Source of the DNA: Trabulsiella odontotermitis
GTDB taxonomy: Bacteria; Pseudomonadota; Gammaproteobacteria; Enterobacterales; Enterobacteriaceae
Reading direction: 5' to 3'
NCBI RefSeq assembly: GCF_001297775.1
Contig: NZ_LIFX01000007.1
Coordinates: 7,558 to 23,557, forward strand
Length of the DNA stretch: 16,000 bases
Below, piece after piece: positions 154 to 7,957 of the stretch. The notes under the pieces are model-generated. The model worked only from the letters and a program-made list of their open reading frames with translations. It ran no database searches and had not been told where the DNA came from. Made by a program: the position numbers and the translations under genes. Within the stretch, counting starts at the first letter, position 1, and each line of letters begins with the position of its first letter.

Positions 154-1305
154 TTAGGGTTTTGATGATATGACCATTTGCGATGGGCTTCCCACCGCCG
201 TGTAGTCCTCTGCAAAGGTTAACTTGCCATCGGTCGGCGACACGCTGAAACGGGTGATATTGTCGCTGCGCTGGTTCATCACATACAGCCAGCGGCCTTG
301 TGCATCGAGCGTCAGCGTGCGCGGATAGTCGCCGCGCGTCCAGATATCCTGCTGGTGTGTCAGCGTACCGTCGGCCGTTACAGTAAAGTGACCAATGCTG
401 TTATGCAAACGGTTGGCAACATACAGCTGTTTTCCGTCGTGGCTTAACACCAGACCGGCGGCAAAACTGGTGCCCTTGTAGCCGTCCGGTAATGCCGAAA
501 TCGTTTTACCTTCGCGCAGGGTGCCGGTGGCCGTATCCAGTTGATAGTAAGTTAGCGTAGAGGCTTCTTCGTTAATCAGCCACACGCCGTCGCCTTTCGG
601 AGTGAAAACAAAGTGGCGCGGACCGGCACCGTTCGAGGATGCCGCGACAAACGGCGGATCGTTCGGCGTCAGCTTGCCGCTCGCTGCGTCAAAGCGGTAC
701 TGATAGACGCGATCCAGCCCCAGATCGGTTGAAAAGACATACTTCCCGCTGGGATCAGCGGCGATCATGTGGGCATGCGGACCGTTATGGTCACTGATAG
801 CAAAGCTGCCTTCGACGGCACCTTCAGGTTTTGCCGCGCCCGCCGGACCTTCATCCTGATGCGTATCACTCGCCTCGCCCAGGCTGCCATCCGCTTTCAC
901 CGGCAATACAGCGATCGAACCGCTGACGTAATTCGCCACCAGCAGATGTTTACCGTCCGGCGTCAGCGAGAGATAGACCGGCCCGGCACCACCGGAAGCG
1001 GCCTGATTCAACTCGCTCAGCTCACCCTTTTCATTAATACGCCAGGCCTGTACGACGCCTTTTTCAACTTCGCTGGCGGCATACAGCGTTTTGCCGTCTG
1101 CGGAAACGGTGAGCTGGGCGGCGTTAGGTAGCGTGCTGACCAGCGTTTTGTCGCTGAGTACGCCGGTTTGTGGATCAACCGAAAAACGGTACAGCCCTTC
1201 ACCATTCGGATTGTAGGTGCCCACCCAGGCAAACTGCGTTTGCGCCGTGGCGGCGGTGGCGAGCAGAGAAAATGAAGCAACAAGCAGATGACGTGCAGAA
1301 AGCAT
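154..1305 (-). CDS. Exported 7-bladed beta-propeller lactonase (6-phosphogluconolactonase/YbhE-like fold family), 383 aa
   Basis: ATG at 1305 is preceded by AAGGAG (AAGGAGTTAATATG). The N-terminus MLSARHLLVASFSLLATAATA/QTQ looks like a Sec signal peptide with an AxA cleavage site. There are repeated blade motifs of the form DGK.LYxAN / GxGPRH: SADGKTLYAASE, TPDGKHLLVANY, DPSGKYVFSTDLG, GAGPRHFVFTPKG, SHDGKQLYVANR, DAQGRWLYVMNQ. Confidence 0.8.
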   Translation of the reverse strand: MLSARHLLVASFSLLATAATAQTQFAWVGTYNPNGEGLYRFSVDPQTGVLSDKTLVSTLPNAAQLTVSADGKTLYAASEVEKGVVQAWRINEKGELSELNQAASGGAGPVYLSLTPDGKHLLVANYVSGSIAVLPVKADGSLGEASDTHQDEGPAGAAKPEGAVEGSFAISDHNGPHAHMIAADPSGKYVFSTDLGLDRVYQYRFDAASGKLTPNDPPFVAASSNGAGPRHFVFTPKGDGVWLINEEASTLTYYQLDTATGTLREGKTISALPDGYKGTSFAAGLVLSHDGKQLYVANRLHNSIGHFTVTADGTLTHQQDIWTRGDYPRTLTLDAQGRWLYVMNQRSDNITRFSVSPTDGKLTFAEDYTAVGSPSQMVISSKP

Positions 1306-1340
1306 ATTAACTCCTTGATGGATCGACTGAAATTATTTTC

Positions 1341-1384
1341 CCTTCACTCCCGCCCTCTCCCGACGAGAGGGGGCGAAGGGGCAG
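1341..1384. repeat. GC-rich intergenic palindromic element (CCCTCTC-N5-GAGAGGG stem with a GGGAGTGAAGGG-type tail in minus orientation)
   Basis: Stem 1353-1359 / 1365-1371 (ccctctc / gagaggg). In minus orientation it reads CCCCCTCTCGTCGGGAGAGGGCGGGAGTGAAGGG. It has the same architecture as the element at 12598-12637. It sits between the aldolase stop and the lactonase start and has no U-tract. Confidence 0.6.
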
Positions 1385-1385
1385 G

Positions 1386-2126
1386 TTATTTAACCCGTTG
1401 TTTGGTCATCGCCAGCAACTGGCGTACATCGTCAGGGCGGGTATCACCACTGGCTTTATCAATGATGGAGCTATAGATGTGCGGAATGATTTTGCTGACC
1501 CCGGCGTCGAGCGCGATCTGCAGGATCTCGCCGAAGTTTTCCAGATCGATACCCCCGGTCGGCTCCAGCCAGAAATCATGACGGGCGCAGGCTTCCGCCA
1601 CCGCTTTGTATTCGTCACGGCACTTGAGGCCACCCATCGGGAAATATTTCACCGAACTGCCGCCCATGTCTTTCAGCAGGGCGATCGCGGTGTCAACCGG
1701 CACGATGCCATCCGCGGCGGCGCTGCTCAGCGGACCGGTGGAGATCTTCACCATGCCCGGCGTGCCGGTCGGGGAAATCAGCCCATTTACCACCGTCTGG
1801 TTCTGCCCCAGCAGCGCACGGCTGGTCGCGACGCCGGTGAAAACCTGGTTCACATGCTGCGGCTGTACCTGACGGGAGATTTCACTGACCATGGCCGACT
1901 GGTTCGGATCGCCCGCGCCCAGCCCGACGGACAGCGCGTTATCGATTAGCGCCGCATACTCGCGCATATCCGCCACCGCCGTGGCGACATCCGGGTAATT
2001 TTTGGAAAGCACACCGACCAGCACGTGGCCTTCTGCCGCTTCGTAAATGGCGCTGGCATTCGCTTTGCTTCCCGCCAGCACGTTCAGGCAGACACGATCA
2101 CGATAAAAATTCGGGGTCAGTTTCAT
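1386..2126 (-). CDS. KDGP (2-dehydro-3-deoxy-phosphogluconate) aldolase, DgaF/DagF-type (not the Eda type), 246 aa
   Basis: Full-length ORF. Its ATG overlaps the upstream gene's stop codon as ATGA (2123-2126). The sequence (MKLTPNFYRDRVCLNVLAGS..., GLGAGDPNQS, YFPMGGL, EPTGGID) matches my recollection of the KDGP-aldolase family exemplified by Salmonella DgaF. The gene sits directly downstream of a DgaE-like gene. Confidence 0.75.
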   Translation of the reverse strand: MKLTPNFYRDRVCLNVLAGSKANASAIYEAAEGHVLVGVLSKNYPDVATAVADMREYAALIDNALSVGLGAGDPNQSAMVSEISRQVQPQHVNQVFTGVATSRALLGQNQTVVNGLISPTGTPGMVKISTGPLSSAAADGIVPVDTAIALLKDMGGSSVKYFPMGGLKCRDEYKAVAEACARHDFWLEPTGGIDLENFGEILQIALDAGVSKIIPHIYSSIIDKASGDTRPDDVRQLLAMTKQRVK

Positions 2127-3241
2127 GCTTTTTTCTCCTTGTTCAGTACTTCGGCAATGCGGCGCGCGACGATCTCAAGCTGATCGGCGTTAACGCTACG
2201 CACATCCGCTTCGATGATCCCTTCGTTCGCTTTGTAACCACGGAAATAGATGGCGTACTGCCCTTGCTTAAGAGCGTTGACCAGATCGCCGGTCGCCACG
2301 TTGGTCACCGCTTCATCAAATTTGATTTCGGTACGGGCGATGTCGCGTCCGGCGCTGTCCCATACCACGCGGGCAGTCACACCCTTCAGGGTATTGAGCT
2401 GGTTGATGAATGGCGTCATCTTCGCCACCATCTCATCACCGCTCTCTTTGCTGGCGGTGAGGTAATGTTCGATGGCGCAAGTCAGGCCGAGAATGCCCTC
2501 TTTACCGACTTTCATCGCCCGGCCGATGCCTGCCGTCTGGCGTTTCACCCATTCGACGTACTGCGTTTTACCGATCACCAGTCCGCTGGTCGGCCCTTCG
2601 ATGGCTTTCGCGCCGCTGTAGATCACCAGATCGGCGCCCATGCGGTAGTAGCACTGCAAATCTTCTTCTGCCGCCGCATCAACAATCAGCGGCAGGTTGT
2701 GTTTACGCGCTACCACGGCGGCCTGCTCAACGCTGAGCATGCTTTTCTGTACGCAGTGGTGAGATTTGATATACAGGATCGCCGCAGTGCGTGGCGTGAC
2801 AGCCGCCGCGAGCTGATCGGCAGAGCATTCATTGGCATAGCCCGCTTCCACCAGCTTACCGCCGCCGAGCGCAACCATGGTGCCCACCGGCGCGCCAAAG
2901 TTAACGTTGTGCCCTTTCGGCAGCACGATTTCGTTATTTTCAATCGGCGTGACGTGGAGATTTTCCAGCAACCAGTCGCTGTCTTTTACCAGCACCGCCG
3001 CGACCGACTGCGCGATCCCCGCAGAAGCGCAAGAGACCACCGTCGCCCCTTCCACTTCCAGCAGTTTTGCAATGTATTCCCCGGTTTTGTTGACCAGATC
3101 TTTCATTTCAAAGTAGTGGTTCATGCCGCTCATGACGGCCTCGACCACTTCCGGACGCGGCGTGGAAACCCCTAACGCCGTCATGCGACCGGATGTATTA
3201 ATCACTTGTTTTAAATTGTATTTTTCAAAAATCGAAGGCAT
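2123..3241 (-). CDS. DgaE/SelA-like fold-type I PLP enzyme (putative amino-sugar-acid-phosphate ammonia-lyase), 372 aa
   Basis: The motif YSGAKAIEGPTSGLVIG parallels the SelA PLP-lysine motif SGDKLLGGPQAG. The start ATG lies inside the last codons of the upstream gene (17-nt overlap, 3225-3241). The gene is paired with a DgaF-type aldolase, as in the Salmonella dgaE-dgaF arrangement. Confidence 0.8.
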   Translation of the reverse strand: MPSIFEKYNLKQVINTSGRMTALGVSTPRPEVVEAVMSGMNHYFEMKDLVNKTGEYIAKLLEVEGATVVSCASAGIAQSVAAVLVKDSDWLLENLHVTPIENNEIVLPKGHNVNFGAPVGTMVALGGGKLVEAGYANECSADQLAAAVTPRTAAILYIKSHHCVQKSMLSVEQAAVVARKHNLPLIVDAAAEEDLQCYYRMGADLVIYSGAKAIEGPTSGLVIGKTQYVEWVKRQTAGIGRAMKVGKEGILGLTCAIEHYLTASKESGDEMVAKMTPFINQLNTLKGVTARVVWDSAGRDIARTEIKFDEAVTNVATGDLVNALKQGQYAIYFRGYKANEGIIEADVRSVNADQLEIVARRIAEVLNKEKKA

Positions 3242-4358
3242 GTTCCGTGCTCCCTTGTTCGGTCATATAGCCCTTGCCCGCACGAATAGCGGCCAGCGGC
3301 ACCAGAATATTGTCAGCCTGCAGGCTGTCGTTTTCGGCATCCACCATCACGGTGGGCTGATGTTTCAGCGTGAAGAGGGTCAGATCAGCGTCAAAGCCTG
3401 CTGCCAGGCGTCCTTTACGCGATAAGCGCAGCCCTTCTGCCGCATGGTCAGTGACACAGGCGATCACCTGCGGCAGCGACAGGCCAATGGCGAGAAATTT
3501 CGACATCACACTCGCAAGAGAATGTACCGGGCCGTCAATACGGTTGCGGCAGTAGATATCCGAGCTGATGGTGTGCGGCAGAATGCCCATGCTGATGGCG
3601 CGTCGCGCCACCTCAAAGCTGAAACTGGCCGTGCCGTGGCCCACATCGAGGCGCACGCCGCGCTGAATGGCGCGGGTAATGGAGGCACGCAGTTCGCCCG
3701 CGGGCGTCAGAATGCGGTTTGGTTTGCCGTTATAGCAGTGAGTAATGATATCGCCGGAGGTCAGCAGTTCCGCGATCTCATCCAGATTCGGCGGATTGTT
3801 GCCGATATGCACCATCAGCGGCAGATCGCCGTTCTCTTTCTGGATGCTTTTGGCGCGTTCCAGCGGCGTGATGCCGTTTTCGCCGACCACGCTACTGCTC
3901 ATACGCGCTTTCAGTCCGACGATAAAATCCGGGTGACGTTTGACCGCGTCGCGAACCGCAGCGGCATCAATATTCGCCATGTTCGACAGTTCGTTCTGGG
4001 CAATCAGCCCGACGCGGGATATATTCAACAGCGCATAGACGTCAGTGCTGGCCTGACGGGTCAACTGCCAGAAGTCGTCAATGTCGTCCGCACCGGTGCT
4101 GCCAGCGTCGATGACCGTGGTGACACCCGTCGCGATGCCGACGCTGTCAGGTTCATCGTGATAAATCGGGGATTTTGGGTAGCAATGGACGTGGGAGTCA
4201 ATCCAGCCTGCGCTGACATAAACCTCGCCGTGGAGTTCTACCGTTTTTTTCGCGGGTGCGGTGATATCGCCCAGTGCGGCAATTTTGCCGTCCAGAATGG
4301 CGATATCGGTCAGGGTATCGTCGACGAGGCGCGCACGGCGCAGGAGTAAATCAAACAT
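3225..4358 (-). CDS. Amidohydrolase-superfamily metallohydrolase (deacetylase/deacylase-like), 377 aa
   Basis: The metal-ligand set is visible: DSHVHCY (HxH), GLKARMS (candidate carboxylated Lys), MVHIGN, ITHCYNG and ISSDIY (Asp). The RBS is AGGAGAAAGG before the ATG at 4358. Confidence 0.8.
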   Translation of the reverse strand: MFDLLLRRARLVDDTLTDIAILDGKIAALGDITAPAKKTVELHGEVYVSAGWIDSHVHCYPKSPIYHDEPDSVGIATGVTTVIDAGSTGADDIDDFWQLTRQASTDVYALLNISRVGLIAQNELSNMANIDAAAVRDAVKRHPDFIVGLKARMSSSVVGENGITPLERAKSIQKENGDLPLMVHIGNNPPNLDEIAELLTSGDIITHCYNGKPNRILTPAGELRASITRAIQRGVRLDVGHGTASFSFEVARRAISMGILPHTISSDIYCRNRIDGPVHSLASVMSKFLAIGLSLPQVIACVTDHAAEGLRLSRKGRLAAGFDADLTLFTLKHQPTVMVDAENDSLQADNILVPLAAIRAGKGYMTEQGSTEHAFDF

Positions 4359-4376
4359 ACCTTTCTCCTGTGAAGG

Positions 4377-4394
4377 CGGGCGCCGGAGCGCCCG
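4377..4394 (-). other. Intra-operon RNA hairpin with a C(UCCG)G tetraloop
   Basis: The minus-strand RNA reads CGGGCGC-UCCG-GCGCCCG: a 7-bp GC stem with a UNCG-class tetraloop. It lies in the only sizeable gap of the operon (43 nt, between the DUF4310-like stop at 4402 and the amidohydrolase start at 4358). No U-tract follows, so it is not a classic intrinsic terminator. Confidence 0.5.
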
Positions 4395-4401
4395 TAAAAC
4401 A

Positions 4402-5046
4402 TTAGCTGATAGCGATGGGGAAGATAGAACCGAGGATCATGGCGCCAAGAATGGCTCCCCCGGTGATCGGCTTCTGCCAGAGGTAGAACAGCAGCGCGCC
4501 AATCAGTGAACCCACGCCGATCGGAATGGACGCCGTCATTGCGCTCAGGATAATCAACGGCCCGAGGAAGCGGCCTGACGCGTTACCGGCACCCATCATG
4601 ACGTCAGCACCGTAGGTGGAGTCGCTCTGGTTGATGGTGAACTTACGCGCCAGAATAATGATGTAACCAATCGCCAGACCAATCACCAGACCGGTAATCA
4701 GCGACGCAATGAAATTGGTCACCGGGAACATGATCCCCGCGCCCAGCAACAGCGCCGGAACCCCAAGACCCACACCGGTCTGGATAGCGCCGCCGATATC
4801 AAGGATCCCCACCAGCGAACCTTCGATGATACGGGCAAACAGGAAGCTCGCGCCAAACGCCGCGACCGCACCGTATACGCCGGTATCAATCCCCGCTTTC
4901 AGCATGGCCACGAAGGCCACTTCGTTAAACGCGCCGATACCGTAGAGGTAGTACATGTGCGTCCCGGCGAACACGCCGGAGGAGAGCAGGCCAACAAAGA
5001 TCGGGAACGACCAGTCGGCATACCAAAAACCTTTTTTCTCTTCCAT
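4402..5046 (-). CDS. Polytopic inner-membrane protein, DUF4310-like, 214 aa (function unknown)
   Basis: About 6 hydrophobic, Gly/Ala/Ile-rich segments. The RBS is CAGGAGCC, 4 nt before the ATG at 5046. There are 12 nt after the upstream stop. The family assignment is from recall of the conserved SFCGS/DUF4312/DUF4311/DUF4310 gene neighbourhood. Confidence 0.75.
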   Translation of the reverse strand: MEEKKGFWYADWSFPIFVGLLSSGVFAGTHMYYLYGIGAFNEVAFVAMLKAGIDTGVYGAVAAFGASFLFARIIEGSLVGILDIGGAIQTGVGLGVPALLLGAGIMFPVTNFIASLITGLVIGLAIGYIIILARKFTINQSDSTYGADVMMGAGNASGRFLGPLIILSAMTASIPIGVGSLIGALLFYLWQKPITGGAILGAMILGSIFPIAIS

Positions 5047-5058
5047 TTCAGGCTCCTG

Positions 5059-5835
5059 TTATTTACCGCTGAGAGAGTTATGGATCACATCCAGCCAGTT
5101 CGGGACGGTCAGATGGAAAGATTCGATCATCTTCATGTCGAAGCCGCGGAAGAAGCCGCTCAGAACGAACAGCGCTACAATCGCCACCATCATCACTTTG
5201 GTCACACGATGCCAGCCGCTCTCTTCAACGCCTTTACCGATCAGAATACCCAGTACCAGACCTGGCACGGCGTTACCCATGATCAGTTGCGCTGCGCCAC
5301 CGAAGACGGTTGCCCAGAAGCCGGATTTTTTACCCGCGTCGATAGCCGCCAGCCAGAAGATCACCGGCATCACGGTATTCACCAGCAGGTTTGCCGCCGG
5401 TACCAGTACCTTCACTGCCGTCACCTGCAGTGCTTCCGGTACGGACGAGGCGGTCAGGTTGAGGAAGGTCACCACGATCATGCCGATCACGCCGCAGGCG
5501 ATCGCCATTTTCTTCGGATCATGCAGCGTTTCACCGACATTGCGGTTTTTCAGCATCAGCGCTGCCGCACCCCAGTTAGGAATAATGCGGTGGTCGACGT
5601 CCTGTGTGAAAGAACCCGCCGCAACAGAGGAGGCCCACGCGTTGAAGAAGAAGCCTAACCCAAAGGAGAAGTGAGACGCAGGGTCCCCTTCGCAAGAGTT
5701 CAGTTCCCCCAACGTACGAAACGCGCCCATCCCCTGTGTGGTGGGCGCATGAAACATGCGTGCAGCCCCAGCACCCACGCCGACGCCCACGAGGCCACCG
5801 ATGATGAGTGATTTTATTAAAATTATCAGGAACAT
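5059..5835 (-). CDS. Polytopic inner-membrane protein, DUF4311-like, 258 aa (function unknown)
   Basis: About 6-7 hydrophobic segments (MFLIILIKSLIIGGLVGVGVGAGAA..., VMPVIFWLAAI..., VMMVAIVALFVLSGFF). It is tightly linked to its neighbours on the same strand. Confidence 0.75.
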   Translation of the reverse strand: MFLIILIKSLIIGGLVGVGVGAGAARMFHAPTTQGMGAFRTLGELNSCEGDPASHFSFGLGFFFNAWASSVAAGSFTQDVDHRIIPNWGAAALMLKNRNVGETLHDPKKMAIACGVIGMIVVTFLNLTASSVPEALQVTAVKVLVPAANLLVNTVMPVIFWLAAIDAGKKSGFWATVFGGAAQLIMGNAVPGLVLGILIGKGVEESGWHRVTKVMMVAIVALFVLSGFFRGFDMKMIESFHLTVPNWLDVIHNSLSGK

Positions 5836-5857
5836 TAGTCTGCCCTTTTAGTAAGAA

Positions 5858-6157
5858 TCAGCGTTGCGTGACAAAATCTACCCTGTCGAGGTTGATGGCG
5901 GTCACGTTGACGGTGACATCCAGCTCCACGCTGTACGACCGTCTTTCCCGGCGCAGAAAGAAGAACAAAAACGCTTCCTTACGCACCGCTTCACGCGCAT
6001 GAACAACTTGCACATCCTGTGGCTCAATACGCAGTAAAATGTGCGGTGAACTCTTCATCACCGCTGATTGCACCTGGTTAAGCGCATCGGAAAAAGCACG
6101 TGCTTTTGAGTCGCCTTTGCCCTTAACCCTCACCGTGGTGGTGAACTGCTCTTTCAT
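5858..6157 (-). CDS. Small soluble protein, DUF4312-like, 99 aa (function unknown)
   Basis: The ORF starts 2 nt after the stop codon of the SFCGS gene (TAA-CT-ATG), which suggests translational coupling. There are no hydrophobic segments. Confidence 0.7.
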   Translation of the reverse strand: MKEQFTTTVRVKGKGDSKARAFSDALNQVQSAVMKSSPHILLRIEPQDVQVVHAREAVRKEAFLFFFLRRERRSYSVELDVTVNVTAINLDRVDFVTQR

Positions 6158-6159
6158 AG

Positions 6160-6525
6160 TTATGCGCCGTATTTCTTTTTCCAGGCTTCCACCAGGCGCT
6201 CGCCCAGCTCTTCTTTATCCATAAAGCCAAAACCCAGAACGTTGCAGCCTTCATTGATGGCCGTTACGCCCTCATCCACAGAACGCATGCCGTATTTCGC
6301 TTTGTAGCCATATTTGTTTTGTGCCGTAATGGCGCCCGCGCCACCGCTACCGCAGAAAGAGATGCCGAAGGTGGCGTTTTCCGCTTTCATCACGTCGCCA
6401 AGCTTCATGTCTGCCGCTACGCCCGGAACAACCACGGCACGGCCACCGGCTTTCTCAACGCCTGCAGCCACTTTCTGTCCTTTGCCAAGGCGATCGCCAA
6501 TCACAACGGTAATCTGTTCCATCAT
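6160..6525 (-). CDS. Glycine-rich SFCGS-family protein, 121 aa (function unknown; EIIB-like Cys loop)
   Basis: It contains the literal family signature GISFCGSGGAGAITA (Cys58 codon at 6354..6352). AAGGAG overlaps the stop codon of the upstream PRD gene. The start is a double ATG ATG. Confidence 0.8.
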   Translation of the reverse strand: MMEQITVVIGDRLGKGQKVAAGVEKAGGRAVVVPGVAADMKLGDVMKAENATFGISFCGSGGAGAITAQNKYGYKAKYGMRSVDEGVTAINEGCNVLGFGFMDKEELGERLVEAWKKKYGA

Positions 6526-6532
6526 TTGCTCC

Positions 6533-6853
6533 TTAAAGGTTGTCTTTCGCTACTTCGAAGTGAACGGAGAGCAGCCAGGCTTCTTCCTCAGGGAGATTGC
6601 CGAACTGCGCGACCACTTCTCGGGCGAGCGTCATTGAATCTGGTGAAATTTCTTCGAACAGGCTGGCGTCCACTTCAGGCAGCGGCTCACCGGTCACTGA
6701 CCGATGCGCCATCGCGCGGACGTGAGAGGTCAGCATCTGCTCCTGTACTGCATTGGGGAGAATGTTGTGGCGGCTGAGCAGCGCAAAGGTCTGCTTCAGC
6801 ATGGTATCGGCAAGTTTCTCTGTCTGAACTGCCTGGTCCCCAACGTCGTTCAT
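6533..6853 (-). CDS. Stand-alone PRD (PTS regulation domain) protein, ~106 aa
   Basis: The two conserved His contexts typical of a PRD are present: MLTSHVRAMAHRS and EEAWLLSVHFEVA. I prefer the ATG at 6853 (GGAG, then 5 nt, then ATG) over the track's start at 6946. That start is actually a GTG lying inside a 20-bp palindrome, with no SD. No CAT/RNA-binding or HTH domain is evident. Confidence 0.7.
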   Translation of the reverse strand: MNDVGDQAVQTEKLADTMLKQTFALLSRHNILPNAVQEQMLTSHVRAMAHRSVTGEPLPEVDASLFEEISPDSMTLAREVVAQFGNLPEEEAWLLSVHFEVAKDNL

Positions 6854-6939
6854 TACCGCTCCGTTAATCACTCGTCTTACCCCGTTAATGTCTCTGAGAT
6901 AAAAGTAGCGTTGGGAAACCGGAGTTTGTAGACAGTTGT

Positions 6940-6959
6940 TTTCCACTTCGAAGTGGAAA
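6940..6959. promoter_or_regulatory. Perfect 20-bp palindrome TTTCCACTTCGAAGTGGAAA (candidate operator) upstream of the PRD operon
   Basis: Read directly from the sequence: 10/10 arm complementarity with no spacer. It overlaps a possible -35 (TTCGAA, 6952..6947) that lies 16 nt from a TACAAA -10 (6930..6925) on the minus strand. Confidence 0.5.
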
Positions 6960-6972
6960 GGAAACAGGCAGC

Positions 6973-6988
6973 AGTGATCTGTGCCACA
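6973..6988. promoter_or_regulatory. Weaker CRP-like site (minus strand TGTGG-N6-TCACT)
   Basis: 8/10 match to the TGTGA-N6-TCACA core. The centre is ~6980.5, about 62 bp upstream of the TSS implied by the TACAAA -10, which is class-I-like spacing. It overlaps a sigma-54 look-alike (see rejected list). Confidence 0.3.
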
Positions 6989-7023
6989 TAATTGCGGTGA
7001 ATAAGTTTAATTGACTGGAATTA

Positions 7024-7039
7024 TGTGATGAATATCACG
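7024..7039. promoter_or_regulatory. CRP-binding site candidate TGTGA-tgaata-TCACG
   Basis: 9/10 match to the CRP core TGTGA-N6-TCACA. The left flank is AT-rich. The centre is ~7031.5, which is 51 bp (about 5 helical turns) from the second CRP-like site. Confidence 0.5.
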
Positions 7040-7184
7040 GGGATTGGCGGCAAATCATGGCGTGTCGCAGCGAAAAACCTTGCGAGGCTTCTCGTAAAAA
7101 TGTGATGTCGATAAGGTTTGCTTATAAAAAATCGCTAAGATGCTTGCGGGTGCTTGAGACTTTCCGTCTCAGGCATGGGACGGA

Positions 7185-7300
7185 AAGTGGAAAGCCCCAC
7201 CTGACTATAAATCAAGGTGGGGCCCTAAACTTCACGTCTCAACCGTGGAGGTTAGTGCCTTACCTGCAGAAGCAAGGAGGCATCCATGAAACGACCGCAA
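7185..7300 (-). ncRNA. sok: Candidate Sok-like antisense RNA (exact ends unresolved)
   Basis: There are two candidate minus-strand promoters. One is TTGCTT(7275..7270)-N15-TAACCT(7254..7249), positioned as I recall the R1 sok promoter (TTGCGC-N17-TATCCT). The other is a perfect TATAAT at 7309..7304 with no good -35. On the minus strand the hairpin GCCCCACC-N14-GGTGGGGC (7223..7194), followed by TTTCCACTTTCC, could serve as its terminator. This is an inference by analogy only. Confidence 0.3.
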
Positions 7301-7434
7301 CCAATTATACGGGCGCTGCTGATAATTGCTATGACAATCATCGCAGTGACTCTGATTACCCGGCGATCGCTTTGCGAAATTCGATATCGCAACGGTTCGC
7401 AGGAAGTTGCAGCACGTCTGGATTGCAAATCTGA
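7255..7434 (+). CDS. mok: Possible mok-like overlapping reading frame (modulator of hok translation)
   Basis: This is the 3' part of the track's 7057..7434 ORF. A GTG at 7255 lies 3 nt after GGAGG (7247-7251), and the frame overlaps nearly all of hok, as mok does in R1. The start codon and spacing are suboptimal. An alternative 14-codon ORF (GTG 7245 to TGA 7289) ends in an ATGA overlap with the hok start. Confidence 0.3.
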   Translation: MPYLQKQGGIHETTATNYTGAADNCYDNHRSDSDYPAIALRNSISQRFAGSCSTSGLQI

Positions 7435-7441
7435 CAAGTAA
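7286..7441 (+). CDS. hok: Hok/Gef-family membrane toxin, 51 aa
   Basis: Hand translation gives [51 protein letters not shown]. It has one N-terminal TM helix followed by the family signature TR(K/R)xLCE(I/V)R.R.G..EVAA. Compare R1 Hok (...[28 protein letters not shown]) and E. coli HokB/HokC/HokD. AAGGAGG lies 5 nt before the ATG. The gene is absent from the ORF track because it is under 60 aa. Confidence 0.9.
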   Translation: [51 protein letters not shown]

Positions 7442-7452
7442 GGAGCTATACC

Positions 7453-7475
7453 GGGGGGAGTTCCGAACTCCCCCC
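7453..7475. other. 23-nt near-perfect GC-rich palindrome (GGGGGGAGTTC-C-GAACTCCCCCC) just after the hok stop
   Basis: Read directly from the sequence. It occupies the position of the stable 3' stem-loop of hok mRNAs and lies between convergent hok and cybC. There is no U-tract on either strand. Confidence 0.6.
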
Positions 7476-7513
7476 GCCCCACACAATGAGGGCGTAAGGC
7501 TCAAGCACCTATT

Positions 7514-7903
7514 TTAACGATACTTTTTGTGATAGGTATTGCGCGTCGTCACAAAGCCGTCAGCCGCAGCCTGCGCCTCTTTCACTTTACCTTCGTTAGC
7601 CAGTTTCAGCGCGCCGTCGATTTGCCCGACCAGCGTATCCAGGCCGTGGCGGAAATCTTTCATCTCGGCGCTGTCAGCCGCTTTGCCTTCCAGCTTCGGC
7701 GGCGTCTGTTTCTGCGCATCCAGCGCAGCGGCGCGCATTTTGCTCAGCGCGTCCTTCATGTCCGCGGCGTTATCGGTCTTCTGTACAATTTTCAGGTTTG
7801 CGTTGAGGGTATCCATATCGTCTTCAAGATCGGCGGCAAAGACGTTTGTCGCGCTGAGGACAAGGGAAGACACCGCTAACATCGCGAGGAGTTTTTTACG
7901 CAT
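7514..7903 (-). CDS. cybC: Soluble cytochrome b562 precursor, 129 aa
   Basis: Signal peptide [30 protein letters not shown]. The mature sequence is collinear with E. coli cytochrome b562 as I recall it (ADLEDNMETLNDNL...[32 protein letters not shown]...TTRNxYHxKYR). The heme ligands Met7 and His102 are retained. Confidence 0.95.
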
Positions 7904-7957
7904 TGCTCACTTCCTTTTTTGTTATTAACGGCGCGGCAGGTCGCGCCAATAAGTGAA

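What the first reader, a model, noticed from the sequence alone, without database searches (positions are those of the whole stretch)
7148..7512. Apparently intact hok/sok-type type I toxin-antitoxin locus, absent from the ORF track, wedged between cybC and the accessory operon
Hand translation of 7286-7441 gives a 51-aa protein with the unmistakable Hok/Gef signature (TM helix, then [19 protein letters not shown]) and a strong SD (AAGGAGG, then 5 nt, then ATG). The surrounding RNA features described for hok mRNAs are also present. A 10-nt 5' segment is perfectly complementary to the extreme 3' end (7149-7158 vs 7500-7509), which is fold-back inhibition. There are two leader hairpins, an overlapping upstream reading frame, and a very stable 3' stem-loop (7453-7475). 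Several of the E. coli K-12 chromosomal hok loci are reported to be inactivated, whereas here I see no disruption. Its position at the junction between the conserved backbone (cybC) and the accessory island suggests it may help retain the island. The hok mRNA 3' end abuts or overlaps the convergent cybC stop (7514), so the two transcripts may interfere.
Basis: partly seen in the sequence, partly recalled or inferred. Interest (0 to 1): 0.7.

Follow-up and report, generated by a model that had tools for sequence, protein, structure and literature searches.

The report
Chromosomal hok toxin locus beside cybC
This is a real but ordinary member of the hok family of small membrane-toxin genes, sitting at a chromosomal site conserved across several enterobacterial genera, with one odd point: this lineage lacks the usual upstream "mok" start signals that known hok genes need in order to be translated.

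Summary
7286-7441(+) encodes a 51-aa Hok/Gef peptide (Pfam PF01848, 2.4e-14). The hok-leader model RF01794 matches 7148-7288(+) at 89.5 bits. The 5' end pairs with 7497-7510 in a 14-bp tac/fbi helix that stays paired in all 19 distinct orthologues.

The window is Trabulsiella odontotermitis, and RefSeq already names the gene "Hok/Gef family protein". The same order, EF_0829-cassette - hok - cybC - pmbA, occurs in Enterobacter (the published Hok "cluster 39"), Scandinavium and strain RIT691. hok and both flanks have similar synonymous divergence, so hok is an old vertical resident, not a recent island junction.

"Intact" is only partly right. There is no IS or frameshift, and Hok is under purifying selection (dN/dS 0.1-0.3). 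But the canonical mok start region is missing in the whole lineage: GAGG is GGGG and AUG is ACG. The corresponding single changes inactivate R1 hok. hok instead has a consensus SD 5 nt from its AUG. The sok promoter has a 15-nt spacer. No terminator separates hok from convergent cybC.

Verdict: a new member of a known kind, of modest interest. A mok-independent control mode is a testable lead.

The parts
7136..7141 (+). Candidate hok promoter -10 hexamer, TAAGAT (fits TANNNT), followed by 6 nt and then the mRNA 5' end. There is no recognisable -35.
   Evidence: It has the same geometry as TATGAT, TATAAT, TAGAAT and TGGAAT in four reference hok loci, and as TAGAGT in Enterobacter. The R1 -10, TATGAT, was validated by mutation (PMC9841398). 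The consensus promoter scan found nothing here.
7148..7512 (+). Predicted full-length hok mRNA. The 5' end is inferred by homology. The 3' end is unknown and must lie at or beyond 7510.
   Evidence: The Rfam RF01794 match starts at 7148. The MFE is -157.7 kcal/mol with z = -7.35. The consensus structure has 98.3% of cells paired across 19 orthologues.
7148..7162 (+). tac element, the 5' arm of the fold-back helix. It can alternatively pair with 7166-7173 (metastable hairpin) or with ucb at 7191-7197.
7497..7510 (+). fbi element, the 3' arm of the fold-back helix.
   Evidence: Helix 1 has 14 pairs, all paired in 19 of 19 sequences. Four pairs change on one side only, to G-U-compatible bases. 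One pair changes on both sides (GC in 14, UA in 5).
7153..7173 (+). Metastable 5' hairpin, CUUGAGAC / GUCUCAGG, that would hold tac in the nascent transcript.
   Evidence: It is the MFE structure of the first 28 nt, at -14.8 kcal/mol. The sequence does not vary among orthologues, so there is no covariation test.
7191..7197 (+). ucb box (AAGCCCC). It pairs with tac in the Rfam model structure, or with 7215-7223 in the closed form.
   Evidence: Rfam consensus structure. The 53-nt nascent fold shows the tac/ucb pairing.
7194..7223 (+). Perfect 9-bp GC-rich hairpin, GCCCCACCU / AGGUGGGGC. On the minus strand it is the Sok-type terminator hairpin. Its 3' arm holds GGGG (7219-7222) where other hok loci have the mok SD, GAGG.
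   Evidence: One compensatory C-G to U-A change is seen in a second Trabulsiella copy.
7230..7250 (+). Hairpin homologous to the Sok-target / mok-start hairpin. ACG at 7234-7236 occupies the model columns of the mok AUG. The loop is UCUCAAC.
   Evidence: cmscan alignments. The hairpin folds at -8.2 kcal/mol. The stem is conserved (helix 5).
7245..7289 (+). Candidate leader ORF: GUG plus 13 codons, ending in a UGA that overlaps the hok AUG (AUGA). It has no SD.
   Evidence: The GUG is present in 18 of 19 orthologues and always reads through the hok SD. It is also part of a conserved stem, which could explain its conservation.
7255..7434 (+). Second candidate leader ORF in the mok-equivalent frame. 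It starts at a GUG 3 nt after GGAGG (7247-7251) and is specific to Trabulsiella.
7274..7280 (+). hok Shine-Dalgarno sequence, AAGGAGG, 5 nt from the AUG.
   Evidence: It is invariant in 19 orthologues. The segment is 3 nt shorter than in the reference loci.
7286..7441 (+). hok: a 51-aa toxin with a hydrophobic helix at about residues 7-24, and with Cys30 and Cys47.
   Evidence: Pfam PF01848 at 2.4e-14. NCBIfam NF007279 at 62.1 bits, below its cut-off of 73. RefSeq WP_072170981.1. dN/dS is 0.1-0.3 between genera.
7453..7475 (+). GC-rich 3' stem-loop with 10 bp and no U-tract. It is the likely 3' end protector of the processed mRNA.
   Evidence: It folds at -18.2 kcal/mol. The equivalent R1 stem is needed for stability of the truncated mRNA (PMC9841398). 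Enterobacter has a different but equally strong hairpin at this place.
7181..7243 (-). Candidate Sok-like antisense RNA of about 63 nt: a single-stranded 5' tail, then the terminator hairpin, then UUUCCACUUUCC.
   Evidence: Fold at -28.7 kcal/mol, z = -5.3. Inferred by homology of position with the reference loci. There is no transcript evidence.
7249..7275 (-). Promoter at the position of the canonical sok promoter: -35 TTGCTT (reverse complement of 7270-7275), a 15-nt spacer, and -10 TAACCT (reverse complement of 7249-7254).
   Evidence: The spacer is 17 nt in all reference loci and in RIT691 and Scandinavium.
7304..7331 (-). Alternative antisense promoter candidate: TAGCAA, 16 nt, TATAAT. 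Its start would be near 7297, so the RNA would cover the hok SD and AUG.
   Evidence: PWM score of 7.8, which equals the 90th percentile of the best scores from shuffles, so it is not significant alone. It is weak in Enterobacter.
7514..7903 (-). cybC (cytochrome b562), convergent with hok. Its stop codon starts 3 nt beyond the last paired fbi base (7510).
   Evidence: Pfam PF07361 at 5.3e-32. RefSeq WP_054179612.1. No terminator-like site lies between the two genes.

Best explanation
The locus is a chromosomal hok-family type I toxin gene of Trabulsiella odontotermitis. It is orthologous to the common chromosomal Hok of the Enterobacter cloacae complex (cluster 39 of Escalera-Maurer et al.). 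It has been inherited vertically at a fixed site between the EF_0829-type catabolic cassette and cybC.

Shown here:
- A weak promoter candidate (-10 TAAGAT) would start an mRNA of at least 363 nt at about 7148.
- The 5' tac element can pair with a 3' fbi element (7497-7510) in a conserved 14-bp helix.
- The hok SD can sit in a local hairpin that is conserved across the family.
- The peptide is under purifying selection.

Inferred by analogy with R1:
- The full-length mRNA is a stable, inert store.
- 3' exonucleolytic trimming back to the 7453-7475 stem-loop releases tac and makes the mRNA translatable and open to antisense attack.
- Hok then inserts into the inner membrane and collapses it.

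Different from R1 (shown): the mok SD and AUG are absent in the whole lineage, and hok carries its own consensus SD at optimal spacing.

My best guess (inferred): Hok is made either by direct initiation at its own SD or by coupling to a short non-canonical leader ORF that starts at GUG 7245 or GUG 7255. An antisense RNA ending at the conserved 7223-7194 hairpin is still made, from a non-consensus promoter.
For: Identity:
- Pfam HOK_GEF at 53.1 bits and Rfam RF01794 at 89.5 bits on the sense strand.
- The exact protein is RefSeq 'Hok/Gef family protein [Trabulsiella odontotermitis]'.

mRNA architecture:
- The MFE fold pairs the two ends.
- In 19 distinct orthologues the tac/fbi helix is 100% paired. 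Five of its pairs vary, and all five stay pairable.
- The whole structure is 98.3% paired, against 34-45% when partners are slid by 1-3 columns.
- A complement of at least 10 nt between the ends arises by chance with P of about 5e-4.

Orthology and age:
- 18 of 18 metagenome loci, plus RIT691, Scandinavium and all Trabulsiella contigs, show the same gene order wherever the contig reaches the neighbouring genes.
- The metagenome Hok sequences are Enterobacter proteins.
- dS for hok (0.2 to 1.7) is similar to dS for cybC, pmbA and the cassette genes in the same pairs.

Function:
- dN/dS is 0.07-0.32 between genera.
- The ORF is intact in all 19 orthologues.
- Cluster 39 could be cloned only with mutations (preprint 10.1101/2025.08.07.668861).
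- The C16A mutant of R1 Hok stays toxic, so Ala15 here is not disabling.

mok loss:
- Four reference loci have GAGG followed 7-8 nt later by ATG. This clade has GGGG, then 11 nt, then ACG.
- 52 of 53 hok loci on viral contigs have an SD plus a start codon for a leader ORF that reaches hok. Only 3 of 19 cybC-linked loci do.
Against: - There is no transcript or protein evidence of any kind.
- The consensus scan found no sigma-70 promoter on either strand and no terminator.
- The hok promoter has no -35.
- The sok promoter has a 15-nt spacer here and a poor -10 in Enterobacter, so the antitoxin may be missing or different.
- In R1, loss of the mok AUG or strengthening of the SD/anti-SD stem abolishes Hok synthesis. 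This lineage could therefore be translationally silent.
- Enforcing the classical tac/ucb 'open' form costs 14 kcal/mol relative to the MFE of the truncated RNA.
- Predicted accessibility of the hok SD does not change between the full-length and truncated forms.
- The viral-contig control set is dominated by one E. coli prophage type and was selected with a pattern, so 52 of 53 overstates its breadth.
Confidence: 0.8

Rival explanations
1. This is a fully canonical hok/mok/sok module. The overlapping frame 7057-7434 is mok, Sok blocks mok translation, and hok is translated only by coupling to mok.
For: The mok-equivalent frame is open across hok. The leader matches the family covariance model end to end. 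The Sok-type terminator hairpin and a TAACCT -10, identical to that of the E. coli hokA locus, are present.
Against: The SD (GAGG to GGGG) and the start codon (AUG to ACG) are both absent at the homologous columns, in all 19 orthologues. In Scandinavium the mok frame contains no start codon that reaches hok. The only in-frame GUG with an SD (7255) has a 3-nt spacing and occurs only in Trabulsiella.
Confidence: 0.1
2. The locus is a translationally silent relic. Loss of the mok start region switched hok off long ago, and what remains is kept by RNA-level or neighbouring constraints, or has not yet decayed.
For: The two differences correspond to the R1 loss-of-function mutations A106G and T117C. 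The sok promoter is off-consensus or degenerate. One T. odontotermitis genome carries an IS element in the leader. From memory, several chromosomal hok loci of E. coli K-12 are reported as inactive.
Against: dN/dS is 0.07-0.32 while dS reaches 0.6 to over 1.5, so the peptide sequence is being preserved. All 19 ORFs are intact. A consensus SD at 5-nt spacing is invariant. The Enterobacter orthologue could not be cloned unmutated.
Confidence: 0.15
3. hok acts as an addiction module that keeps the adjacent 'accessory island' (the EF_0829 cassette) in the chromosome.
For: hok/sok stabilises plasmids by post-segregational killing (established knowledge). The locus lies next to a cassette that E. 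coli lacks at this site.
Against: The cassette, hok and cybC are syntenic in Trabulsiella, RIT691, Scandinavium and Enterobacter, with similar dS, so the island is neither recent nor mobile here. hok lies outside the cassette. The window shows no integrase or repeat boundary at the junction.
Confidence: 0.05
4. hok is controlled mainly by convergent cybC transcription. cybC has no terminator of its own, so its transcripts run antisense through fbi, the hok ORF and the leader, and they stand in for or supplement Sok.
For: No terminator-like site lies between hok and cybC on either strand. The cybC stop codon begins 2-4 nt after fbi in Trabulsiella, Scandinavium and Enterobacter. E. coli cybC, which has no hok beside it, has an 11-bp terminator right after its stop. 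A terminator-like hairpin on the cybC strand lies just beyond the hok promoter in Enterobacter.
Against: This rests on anatomy alone. RIT691 has acquired a bidirectional terminator between the two genes and keeps hok. The far-side hairpin is only 4 bp in the window (by direct reading). Rho-dependent termination cannot be judged from sequence.
Confidence: 0.15

Closest known systems
hok/mok/sok (parB) of plasmid R1
   Same: Both have a Hok peptide of about 51 aa with the TR(K/R)SLCEIRYR(D/N)G...EVAA core. Both have 5' tac / 3' fbi fold-back pairing, a metastable 5' hairpin, a ucb box, a Sok-target hairpin, a local hairpin over the hok SD, and a GC-rich 3' stem-loop. The leader matches Rfam RF01794 from end to end.
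   Different: There is no mok SD or AUG; the differences correspond to the R1 loss-of-function changes A106G and T117C. The hok SD is consensus and lies 5 nt from the AUG, against about 9 nt in R1. The first leader hairpin is shorter. The sok promoter spacer is 15 nt, not 17. No terminator follows fbi. The locus is chromosomal and vertically inherited. The protein is about 46% identical to the plasmid Hoks.
Chromosomal Hok of the Enterobacter cloacae complex (cluster 39 in bioRxiv 10.1101/2025.08.07.668861)
   Same: It is the orthologue. The flanking genes match (PRD/SFCGS cassette, cybC, pmbA, darP), the first 11 nt (tac) are identical, and the same ACG and GGGG state, the same AAGGAGG-N5-AUG, and the same fbi abutting the cybC stop are present. 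By my count the protein is about 65% identical.
   Different: In Enterobacter the GUG-initiated leader frame runs on into hok, because Trabulsiella has a 2-nt deletion. The -10 at the sok position is degenerate, CGAACT. The 3' stem-loop has a different sequence. Trabulsiella does not appear in that paper's catalogue.
E. coli chromosomal hok loci (hokA, and a prophage-type locus annotated hokD)
   Same: The leader is 72-78% identical over 7145-7279. The tac is the same, GGGTGCTTGAG, and the -10 geometry matches. The hokA locus has the same sok -10, TAACCT.
   Different: The E. coli loci keep GAGG plus AUG for mok. They are not next to cybC; in about 8% of complete E. coli genomes a relBE-type type II TA is found instead, next to cybC in the two cases examined.

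Membership tests
Hok/Gef toxin family (Pfam PF01848) | Profile match above the gathering threshold | tested here: met
   53.1 bits against a cut-off of 22, E = 2.4e-14, covering residues 7-47.
Hok/Gef toxin family (Pfam PF01848) | A peptide of about 50 aa with an N-terminal hydrophobic helix and the conserved residues T18, L30, C31, E32 and E41 (R1 numbering) | tested here: met
   T17, L29, C30, E31 and E40 are present by direct alignment. The list of conserved positions comes from the preprint. The C16 equivalent is Ala15, but R1 C16A remains toxic.
Hok/Gef toxin family (Pfam PF01848) | Toxicity on expression | not testable with these tools
   The only evidence is indirect: the orthologous cluster 39 could be cloned only with mutations.
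NCBIfam NF007279 'type I toxin-antitoxin system Hok family toxin' (subfamily model) | Score at or above the curated cut-off | tested here: not met
   62.1 bits against a cut-off of 73. This fits RefSeq's use of the generic name 'Hok/Gef family protein'.
hok mRNA / hok-sok locus (Rfam RF01794 and the R1 model) | Covariance-model match of the leader above the gathering score | tested here: met
   89.5 bits against 59, covering the full model 1-157, on the sense strand. The Rfam family is named 'sok', but the match runs in the hok-mRNA orientation and ends at the hok AUG. It therefore shows the leader, not an expressed Sok gene.
hok mRNA / hok-sok locus (Rfam RF01794 and the R1 model) | Long-range tac/fbi pairing of the 5' and 3' ends | tested here: met
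   14 bp, 100% paired in 19 orthologues, with 4 one-sided changes and 1 two-sided change. Chance P is about 5e-4.
hok mRNA / hok-sok locus (Rfam RF01794 and the R1 model) | Alternative tac pairings: a metastable 5' hairpin, and tac/ucb in the processed form | tested here: inconclusive
   Both are predicted for nascent fragments. The sequences do not vary, so covariation cannot be tested. In the truncated RNA the tac/ucb form is 14 kcal/mol above the MFE.
hok mRNA / hok-sok locus (Rfam RF01794 and the R1 model) | A mok leader ORF with its own SD and start codon in the 5' arm of the target hairpin, reading through the hok start region | tested here: not met
   GGGG and ACG replace GAGG and AUG. 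The feature is present in 52 of 53 control loci and in 3 of 19 loci of this lineage, and in those three only through a different GUG.
hok mRNA / hok-sok locus (Rfam RF01794 and the R1 model) | An antisense Sok gene with a promoter and a terminator opposite the leader | tested here: inconclusive
   The terminator hairpin with its U-rich tail is present and conserved. The promoter is TTGCTT, 15 nt, TAACCT, which is off-spacing; it is 17 nt in RIT691 and Scandinavium, and the -10 is degenerate in Enterobacter. There are no expression data.
hok mRNA / hok-sok locus (Rfam RF01794 and the R1 model) | A stable stem-loop that forms the 3' end of the processed mRNA | tested here: met
   7453-7475, 10 bp, -18.2 kcal/mol. 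Its role in R1 is described.

The most novel reading that the evidence does not exclude
The cybC-linked hok lineage (Trabulsiella, Enterobacter, Scandinavium, RIT691) may be a mok-independent variant of hok/sok. In this reading the toxin is translated from its own consensus SD, or through a very short SD-less GUG leader ORF. Repression would then depend less on a canonical Sok acting on mok and more on the fold-back structure, together with antisense transcription from a non-canonical promoter or from read-through of the terminator-less convergent cybC gene.
Probability: 0.35. Interest if true: 0.5.

Novelty: new member of a known kind. Interest (0 to 1): 0.3.

Why it matters
As a hok locus it adds little. 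Hok is reported in about 75-80% of Enterobacteriaceae genomes, and this gene is already annotated.

What could matter is the lineage-wide loss of the mok start region in a toxin gene that is still under purifying selection. mok coupling and Sok's block of mok are the core of the textbook R1 mechanism. A natural, widespread hok that works without them (it is the Enterobacter chromosomal hok, seen on more than 800 contigs) would show how type I toxin control can be rewired. It would also give an accessible system, in E. cloacae, for testing that.

The tight, conserved, terminator-less convergence with cybC also offers a defined case for testing whether a housekeeping gene's transcription feeds into toxin control.

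Tried and rejected
- The word-indexed protein search returned a single hit, so it gave no view of distribution. Exact cluster look-ups did.
- The one genome-contig scan found only two relatives, at 76% identity, and not the source species.
- The first metagenome pattern was too strict and found nothing. The second found 18 loci.
- The consensus promoter and terminator scan found nothing in 6900-7950 apart from one unrelated hairpin. Promoter statements therefore rest on positional homology and on a simple PWM I wrote from remembered frequencies. Its scores are not significant alone: 7.8 is only the 90th percentile of the shuffles' best scores.
- I tested whether 3' truncation opens the hok start region or GUG 7245 in predicted ensembles. 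GUG 7245 opens in the window (unpaired probability 0.00 to 0.97), but this does not recur in the orthologues. hok SD accessibility does not change. I drew no conclusion from it.
- Enforcing tac/ucb costs 14 kcal/mol.
- I considered that the conserved block at 7075-7119 is a class II CRP site for the hok promoter. Its centre is about 38.5 bp upstream, not 41.5, and it could equally serve the divergent cassette. I left it untested.
- Two literature searches for hok loci without mok found nothing on the point. The 2026 preprint says Mok was not analysed because it is hard to call.
- I considered Ala at the conserved Cys16 position as an inactivating change and rejected it, because R1 C16A is still toxic.
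Full report
**1. What is in the sequence**

The ORF at 7286-7441(+) translates to [51 protein letters not shown]. It matches Pfam HOK_GEF at 53.1 bits against a gathering score of 22. AAGGAGG at 7274-7280 lies 5 nt before the ATG.

The only Rfam family above threshold in the 16-kb window is RF01794, at 7148-7288 on the plus strand (89.5 bits, full model). That family is named 'sok'. However, the match is in the orientation of the hok mRNA and ends at the hok AUG. It therefore identifies the hok leader, which contains the Sok-complementary region. It does not show an expressed antisense gene.

Folding 7148-7512 gives -157.7 kcal/mol (z = -7.35). The 5' end, GGGUGCUUGAG, pairs with the 3' end, CUCAAGCACCU. 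A perfect complement of at least 10 nt between the first 20 and last 60 nt arose in 9 of 20,000 shuffles. The cybC stop codon is at 7514-7516 on the other strand.

**2. Where it comes from, and whether it is known**

Exact-sequence look-ups place Hok, CybC and PmbA in Trabulsiella odontotermitis. The Hok peptide is RefSeq WP_072170981.1, 'Hok/Gef family protein'. Public gene calls on ten contigs already carry the ORF with the HOK_GEF label. 'Absent from the ORF track' is therefore a length cut-off, not a gap in knowledge. NCBIfam's stricter Hok subfamily model scores 62.1 bits against a cut-off of 73, which explains the generic RefSeq name.

**3. The neighbourhood is conserved, not a fresh island junction**

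The gene order SFCGS - PRD protein - hok - cybC - pmbA - darP recurs in these sources, wherever the contig reaches the neighbouring genes:
- all Trabulsiella contigs;
- Enterobacteriaceae bacterium RIT691 and a Scandinavium MAG, where Hok is 76% identical;
- 18 of 18 metagenome loci recovered with a leader pattern. Their Hok peptides are exact matches to proteins of the Enterobacter cloacae complex, one of them seen on more than 800 contigs.

Those Enterobacter peptides are 'cluster 39' of Escalera-Maurer et al. (10.1101/2025.08.07.668861).

The 'accessory operon' is the EF_0829-EF_0839 / AHA_3910-3917 cassette with a DgaE-like lyase and a DagF-like aldolase.

Synonymous divergence of hok is of the same order as that of cybC, pmbA, darP and the cassette genes in the same pairs:

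| Comparison with the window | hok dS | Flanking genes dS |
|---|---|---|
| Second Trabulsiella lineage | 0.21 | 0.19-0.64 |
| RIT691 | 0.86 | 0.8-2.2 |
| Enterobacter | about 1.7 | 0.6-1.2 |

hok has therefore sat at this site since before these genera split. The idea that it retains a recently acquired island finds no support.

E. coli has nrdDG next to cybC and no hok there.

**4. RNA architecture across orthologues**

I aligned 19 distinct full-length sequences. RNAalifold recovers the tac/fbi helix as 14 pairs, and no sequence has an unpaired cell in it. Four pairs change on one side only, to G-U-compatible bases. One pair changes on both sides: GC in 14 sequences and UA in 5.

Over the whole consensus structure, 98.3% of cells pair, against 34-45% when partners are slid by 1-3 columns. 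Eight pairs carry two-sided changes. One caveat applies: the structure was derived from this same alignment.

The first 28 nt fold into the CUUGAGAC/GUCUCAGG hairpin, which would hold tac in the nascent RNA. The first 53 nt fold into the tac/ucb stem drawn in the Rfam model. These elements do not vary, so covariation cannot speak to them.

**5. Is it 'intact'?**

Three points favour an intact locus:
- This copy has no IS element, frameshift or stop codon.
- dN/dS between genera is 0.07-0.32, with dS up to saturation.
- All 19 ORFs are intact.

The peptide is therefore maintained by selection. Ala15 replaces the usually conserved Cys16, but R1 Hok C16A is still toxic. The authors could clone cluster 39 only with mutations, which they took as a sign of toxicity.

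Against this, the regulatory half is not canonical. In four reference loci (two plasmids, E. coli hokA, and an E. coli locus annotated hokD), an ATG preceded by GAGG 7-8 nt upstream sits in the 5' arm of the Sok-target hairpin and opens a frame that reads through the hok start. In the window, the same covariance-model columns hold GGGG (7219-7222) and ACG (7234-7236). This holds in all 19 orthologues.

In R1, T117C (AUG to ACG) and A106G (GAGG to GGGG) each abolish Hok toxicity. A106G closes a mismatch in the SD/anti-SD stem (PMC9841398). The window accordingly has a perfect 9-bp GCCCCACCU/AGGUGGGGC hairpin.

As a rough control, 52 of 53 distinct hok loci from viral contigs have an SD plus ATG, GTG or TTG leader ORF that reaches hok. 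Only 3 of 19 loci in this lineage do. The control set is biased towards one E. coli prophage type.

At the same time, the stretch between the hok SD and the AUG is 3 nt shorter than in the reference loci. This gives an invariant AAGGAGG-N5-AUG.

Possible substitutes for mok:
- GUG 7245. It has no SD and opens 14 codons whose UGA stop overlaps the hok AUG. The GUG is present in 18 of 19 orthologues and always reads through the hok SD. It is also part of a conserved stem, which could explain its conservation.
- GUG 7255, 3 nt after GGAGG, in the mok frame. It occurs only in Trabulsiella.

R1 data say that translation up to the hok SD is what matters, not the rest of mok. Either short ORF could therefore serve in principle.

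**6. The antitoxin side**

The minus strand carries a Sok-type terminator, which is the same 9-bp hairpin followed by UUUCCACUUUCC. A 63-nt RNA from about 7243 to 7181 would fold as a free 5' tail plus that hairpin (-28.7 kcal/mol, z = -5.3).

At the position of the canonical sok promoter the window reads TTGCTT, 15 nt, TAACCT. The -10 is the same as at E. coli hokA. However, a 2-nt deletion shared by all Trabulsiella copies shortens the spacer from 17 to 15 nt. RIT691 and Scandinavium keep 17 nt with TACCCT. Enterobacter has CGAACT, which lacks the critical A.

A second candidate (TAGCAA, 16 nt, TATAAT, start near 7297) would give an RNA that covers the hok SD and AUG. It scores no better than the top decile of shuffles, and it is constrained by the coding sequence. 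Whether, and from where, an antitoxin RNA is made cannot be settled from sequence.

**7. Relation to cybC**

No terminator-like site lies between hok and cybC on either strand. The cybC stop codon begins 2-4 nt after fbi in Trabulsiella, Scandinavium and Enterobacter. E. coli cybC has an 11-bp terminator directly after its stop. RIT691 has gained a 53-nt insertion with a bidirectional terminator.

There is no functional evidence.

**8. Mechanism proposed**

Shown:
- a hok toxin ORF under purifying selection;
- a conserved 5'/3' fold-back;
- a conserved local hairpin over the hok SD;
- a strong 3' stem-loop;
- loss of the mok start region.

Inferred by analogy with R1: the full-length mRNA is inert, slow 3' trimming to the 7453-7475 stem releases tac, and the processed mRNA is the form that is translated or destroyed.

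My commitment: Hok synthesis in this lineage does not use a canonical mok. Direct initiation at the consensus SD is the most likely route (about 45%). Next is coupling to the GUG 7245 or GUG 7255 leader ORF (about 30%). No translation at all comes last (about 15-20%).

Thermodynamic modelling did not help to choose. tac/ucb is 14 kcal/mol above the MFE of the truncated RNA. Predicted hok SD accessibility is the same in both forms. The opening of GUG 7245 seen in the window does not recur in the orthologues.

**9. Comparison and novelty**

The locus works like hok of R1 and is a member of the Hok/Gef protein family and of the hok-leader RNA family. It fails one defining feature of the hok/mok/sok regulatory module (mok), and one is undecided (the sok promoter).

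Hok is reported in about 75% of Enterobacteriaceae chromosomes and more than 95% of Enterobacter genomes. The same study states that Mok and Sok were not analysed. I found no description of a hok lineage without mok in the held literature. That is a weak negative.

I file it as a new member of a known kind. The mok-independent reading is a lead: probability about 0.35, and moderate interest if true.

Noticed in passing
L018:1415-3003 (T. odontotermitis CP125781.1); insertion point equivalent to window 7218/7219: In a complete genome of the same species, a 1.45-kb IS3-family element with IS150-like ends (TGTACTGCACCC...) and a 456-aa transposase sits inside the hok leader. It splits the promoter, tac and ucb from the hok ORF and cuts the Sok terminator hairpin. 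From memory, this resembles the IS-associated inactivation reported for hok loci in E. coli K-12.
   Followed up: partly
L039:3288-3810 (E. coli RMDEC465), next to cybC at 4001-4387: In E. coli the spot downstream of cybC holds a type II RelE/RelB-DinJ toxin-antitoxin pair in some strains. That DNA is present in 455 of 5426 complete genomes, and it is next to cybC in the two cases examined. The cybC-distal intergenic site therefore hosts different TA types in different genera.
   Followed up: partly
window 7075-7119: A block between the hok promoter and the divergent cassette is conserved across genera. It holds a CGAG-N4-CTCG palindrome whose loop varies while the stem is kept, then AAATGTGA (a CRP-like half-site) and GATAAGGTTT. 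On the minus strand, in Enterobacter, it reads as a terminator-like hairpin followed by a T-run (L024:2388-2403). Its role is not determined: it could be a regulator site for hok or for the cassette, or a terminator for cybC-strand transcripts.
   Followed up: partly
window 6940-6959: A perfect 20-nt palindrome, TTTCCACTTCGAAGTGGAAA, lies in the 5' leader of the small PRD-domain gene (EF_0829 family). It is identical in all the Trabulsiella loci that were checked. It may be an antiterminator or RAT-like target.
   Followed up: no
window 154-6856 (minus strand): The 'accessory operon' is the EF_0829-EF_0839 / AHA_3910-3917 cassette (DUF4310, DUF4311, DUF4312 and SFCGS proteins). It also encodes an amidohydrolase, a DgaE-like PLP ammonia-lyase, a DagF-like KDPG aldolase and a lactonase-like protein. 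This looks like an amino-sugar-acid catabolic unit of unknown substrate. It has co-diverged with cybC and pmbA in this clade.
   Followed up: partly
L011:6240-6292 (RIT691): A 53-nt insertion between fbi and the cybC stop carries a bidirectional intrinsic terminator (GGGGAAAACGAATTTCCCC flanked by A/T runs). It is absent from Trabulsiella, Scandinavium and Enterobacter.
   Followed up: yes
L019:2864-2915 (T. odontotermitis JBLYEP010000017): One strain has AAAACCCC instead of AAAGCCCC in the ucb box, which breaks a tac/ucb pair. In R1, changes that weaken this stem abolish Hok synthesis.
   Followed up: no
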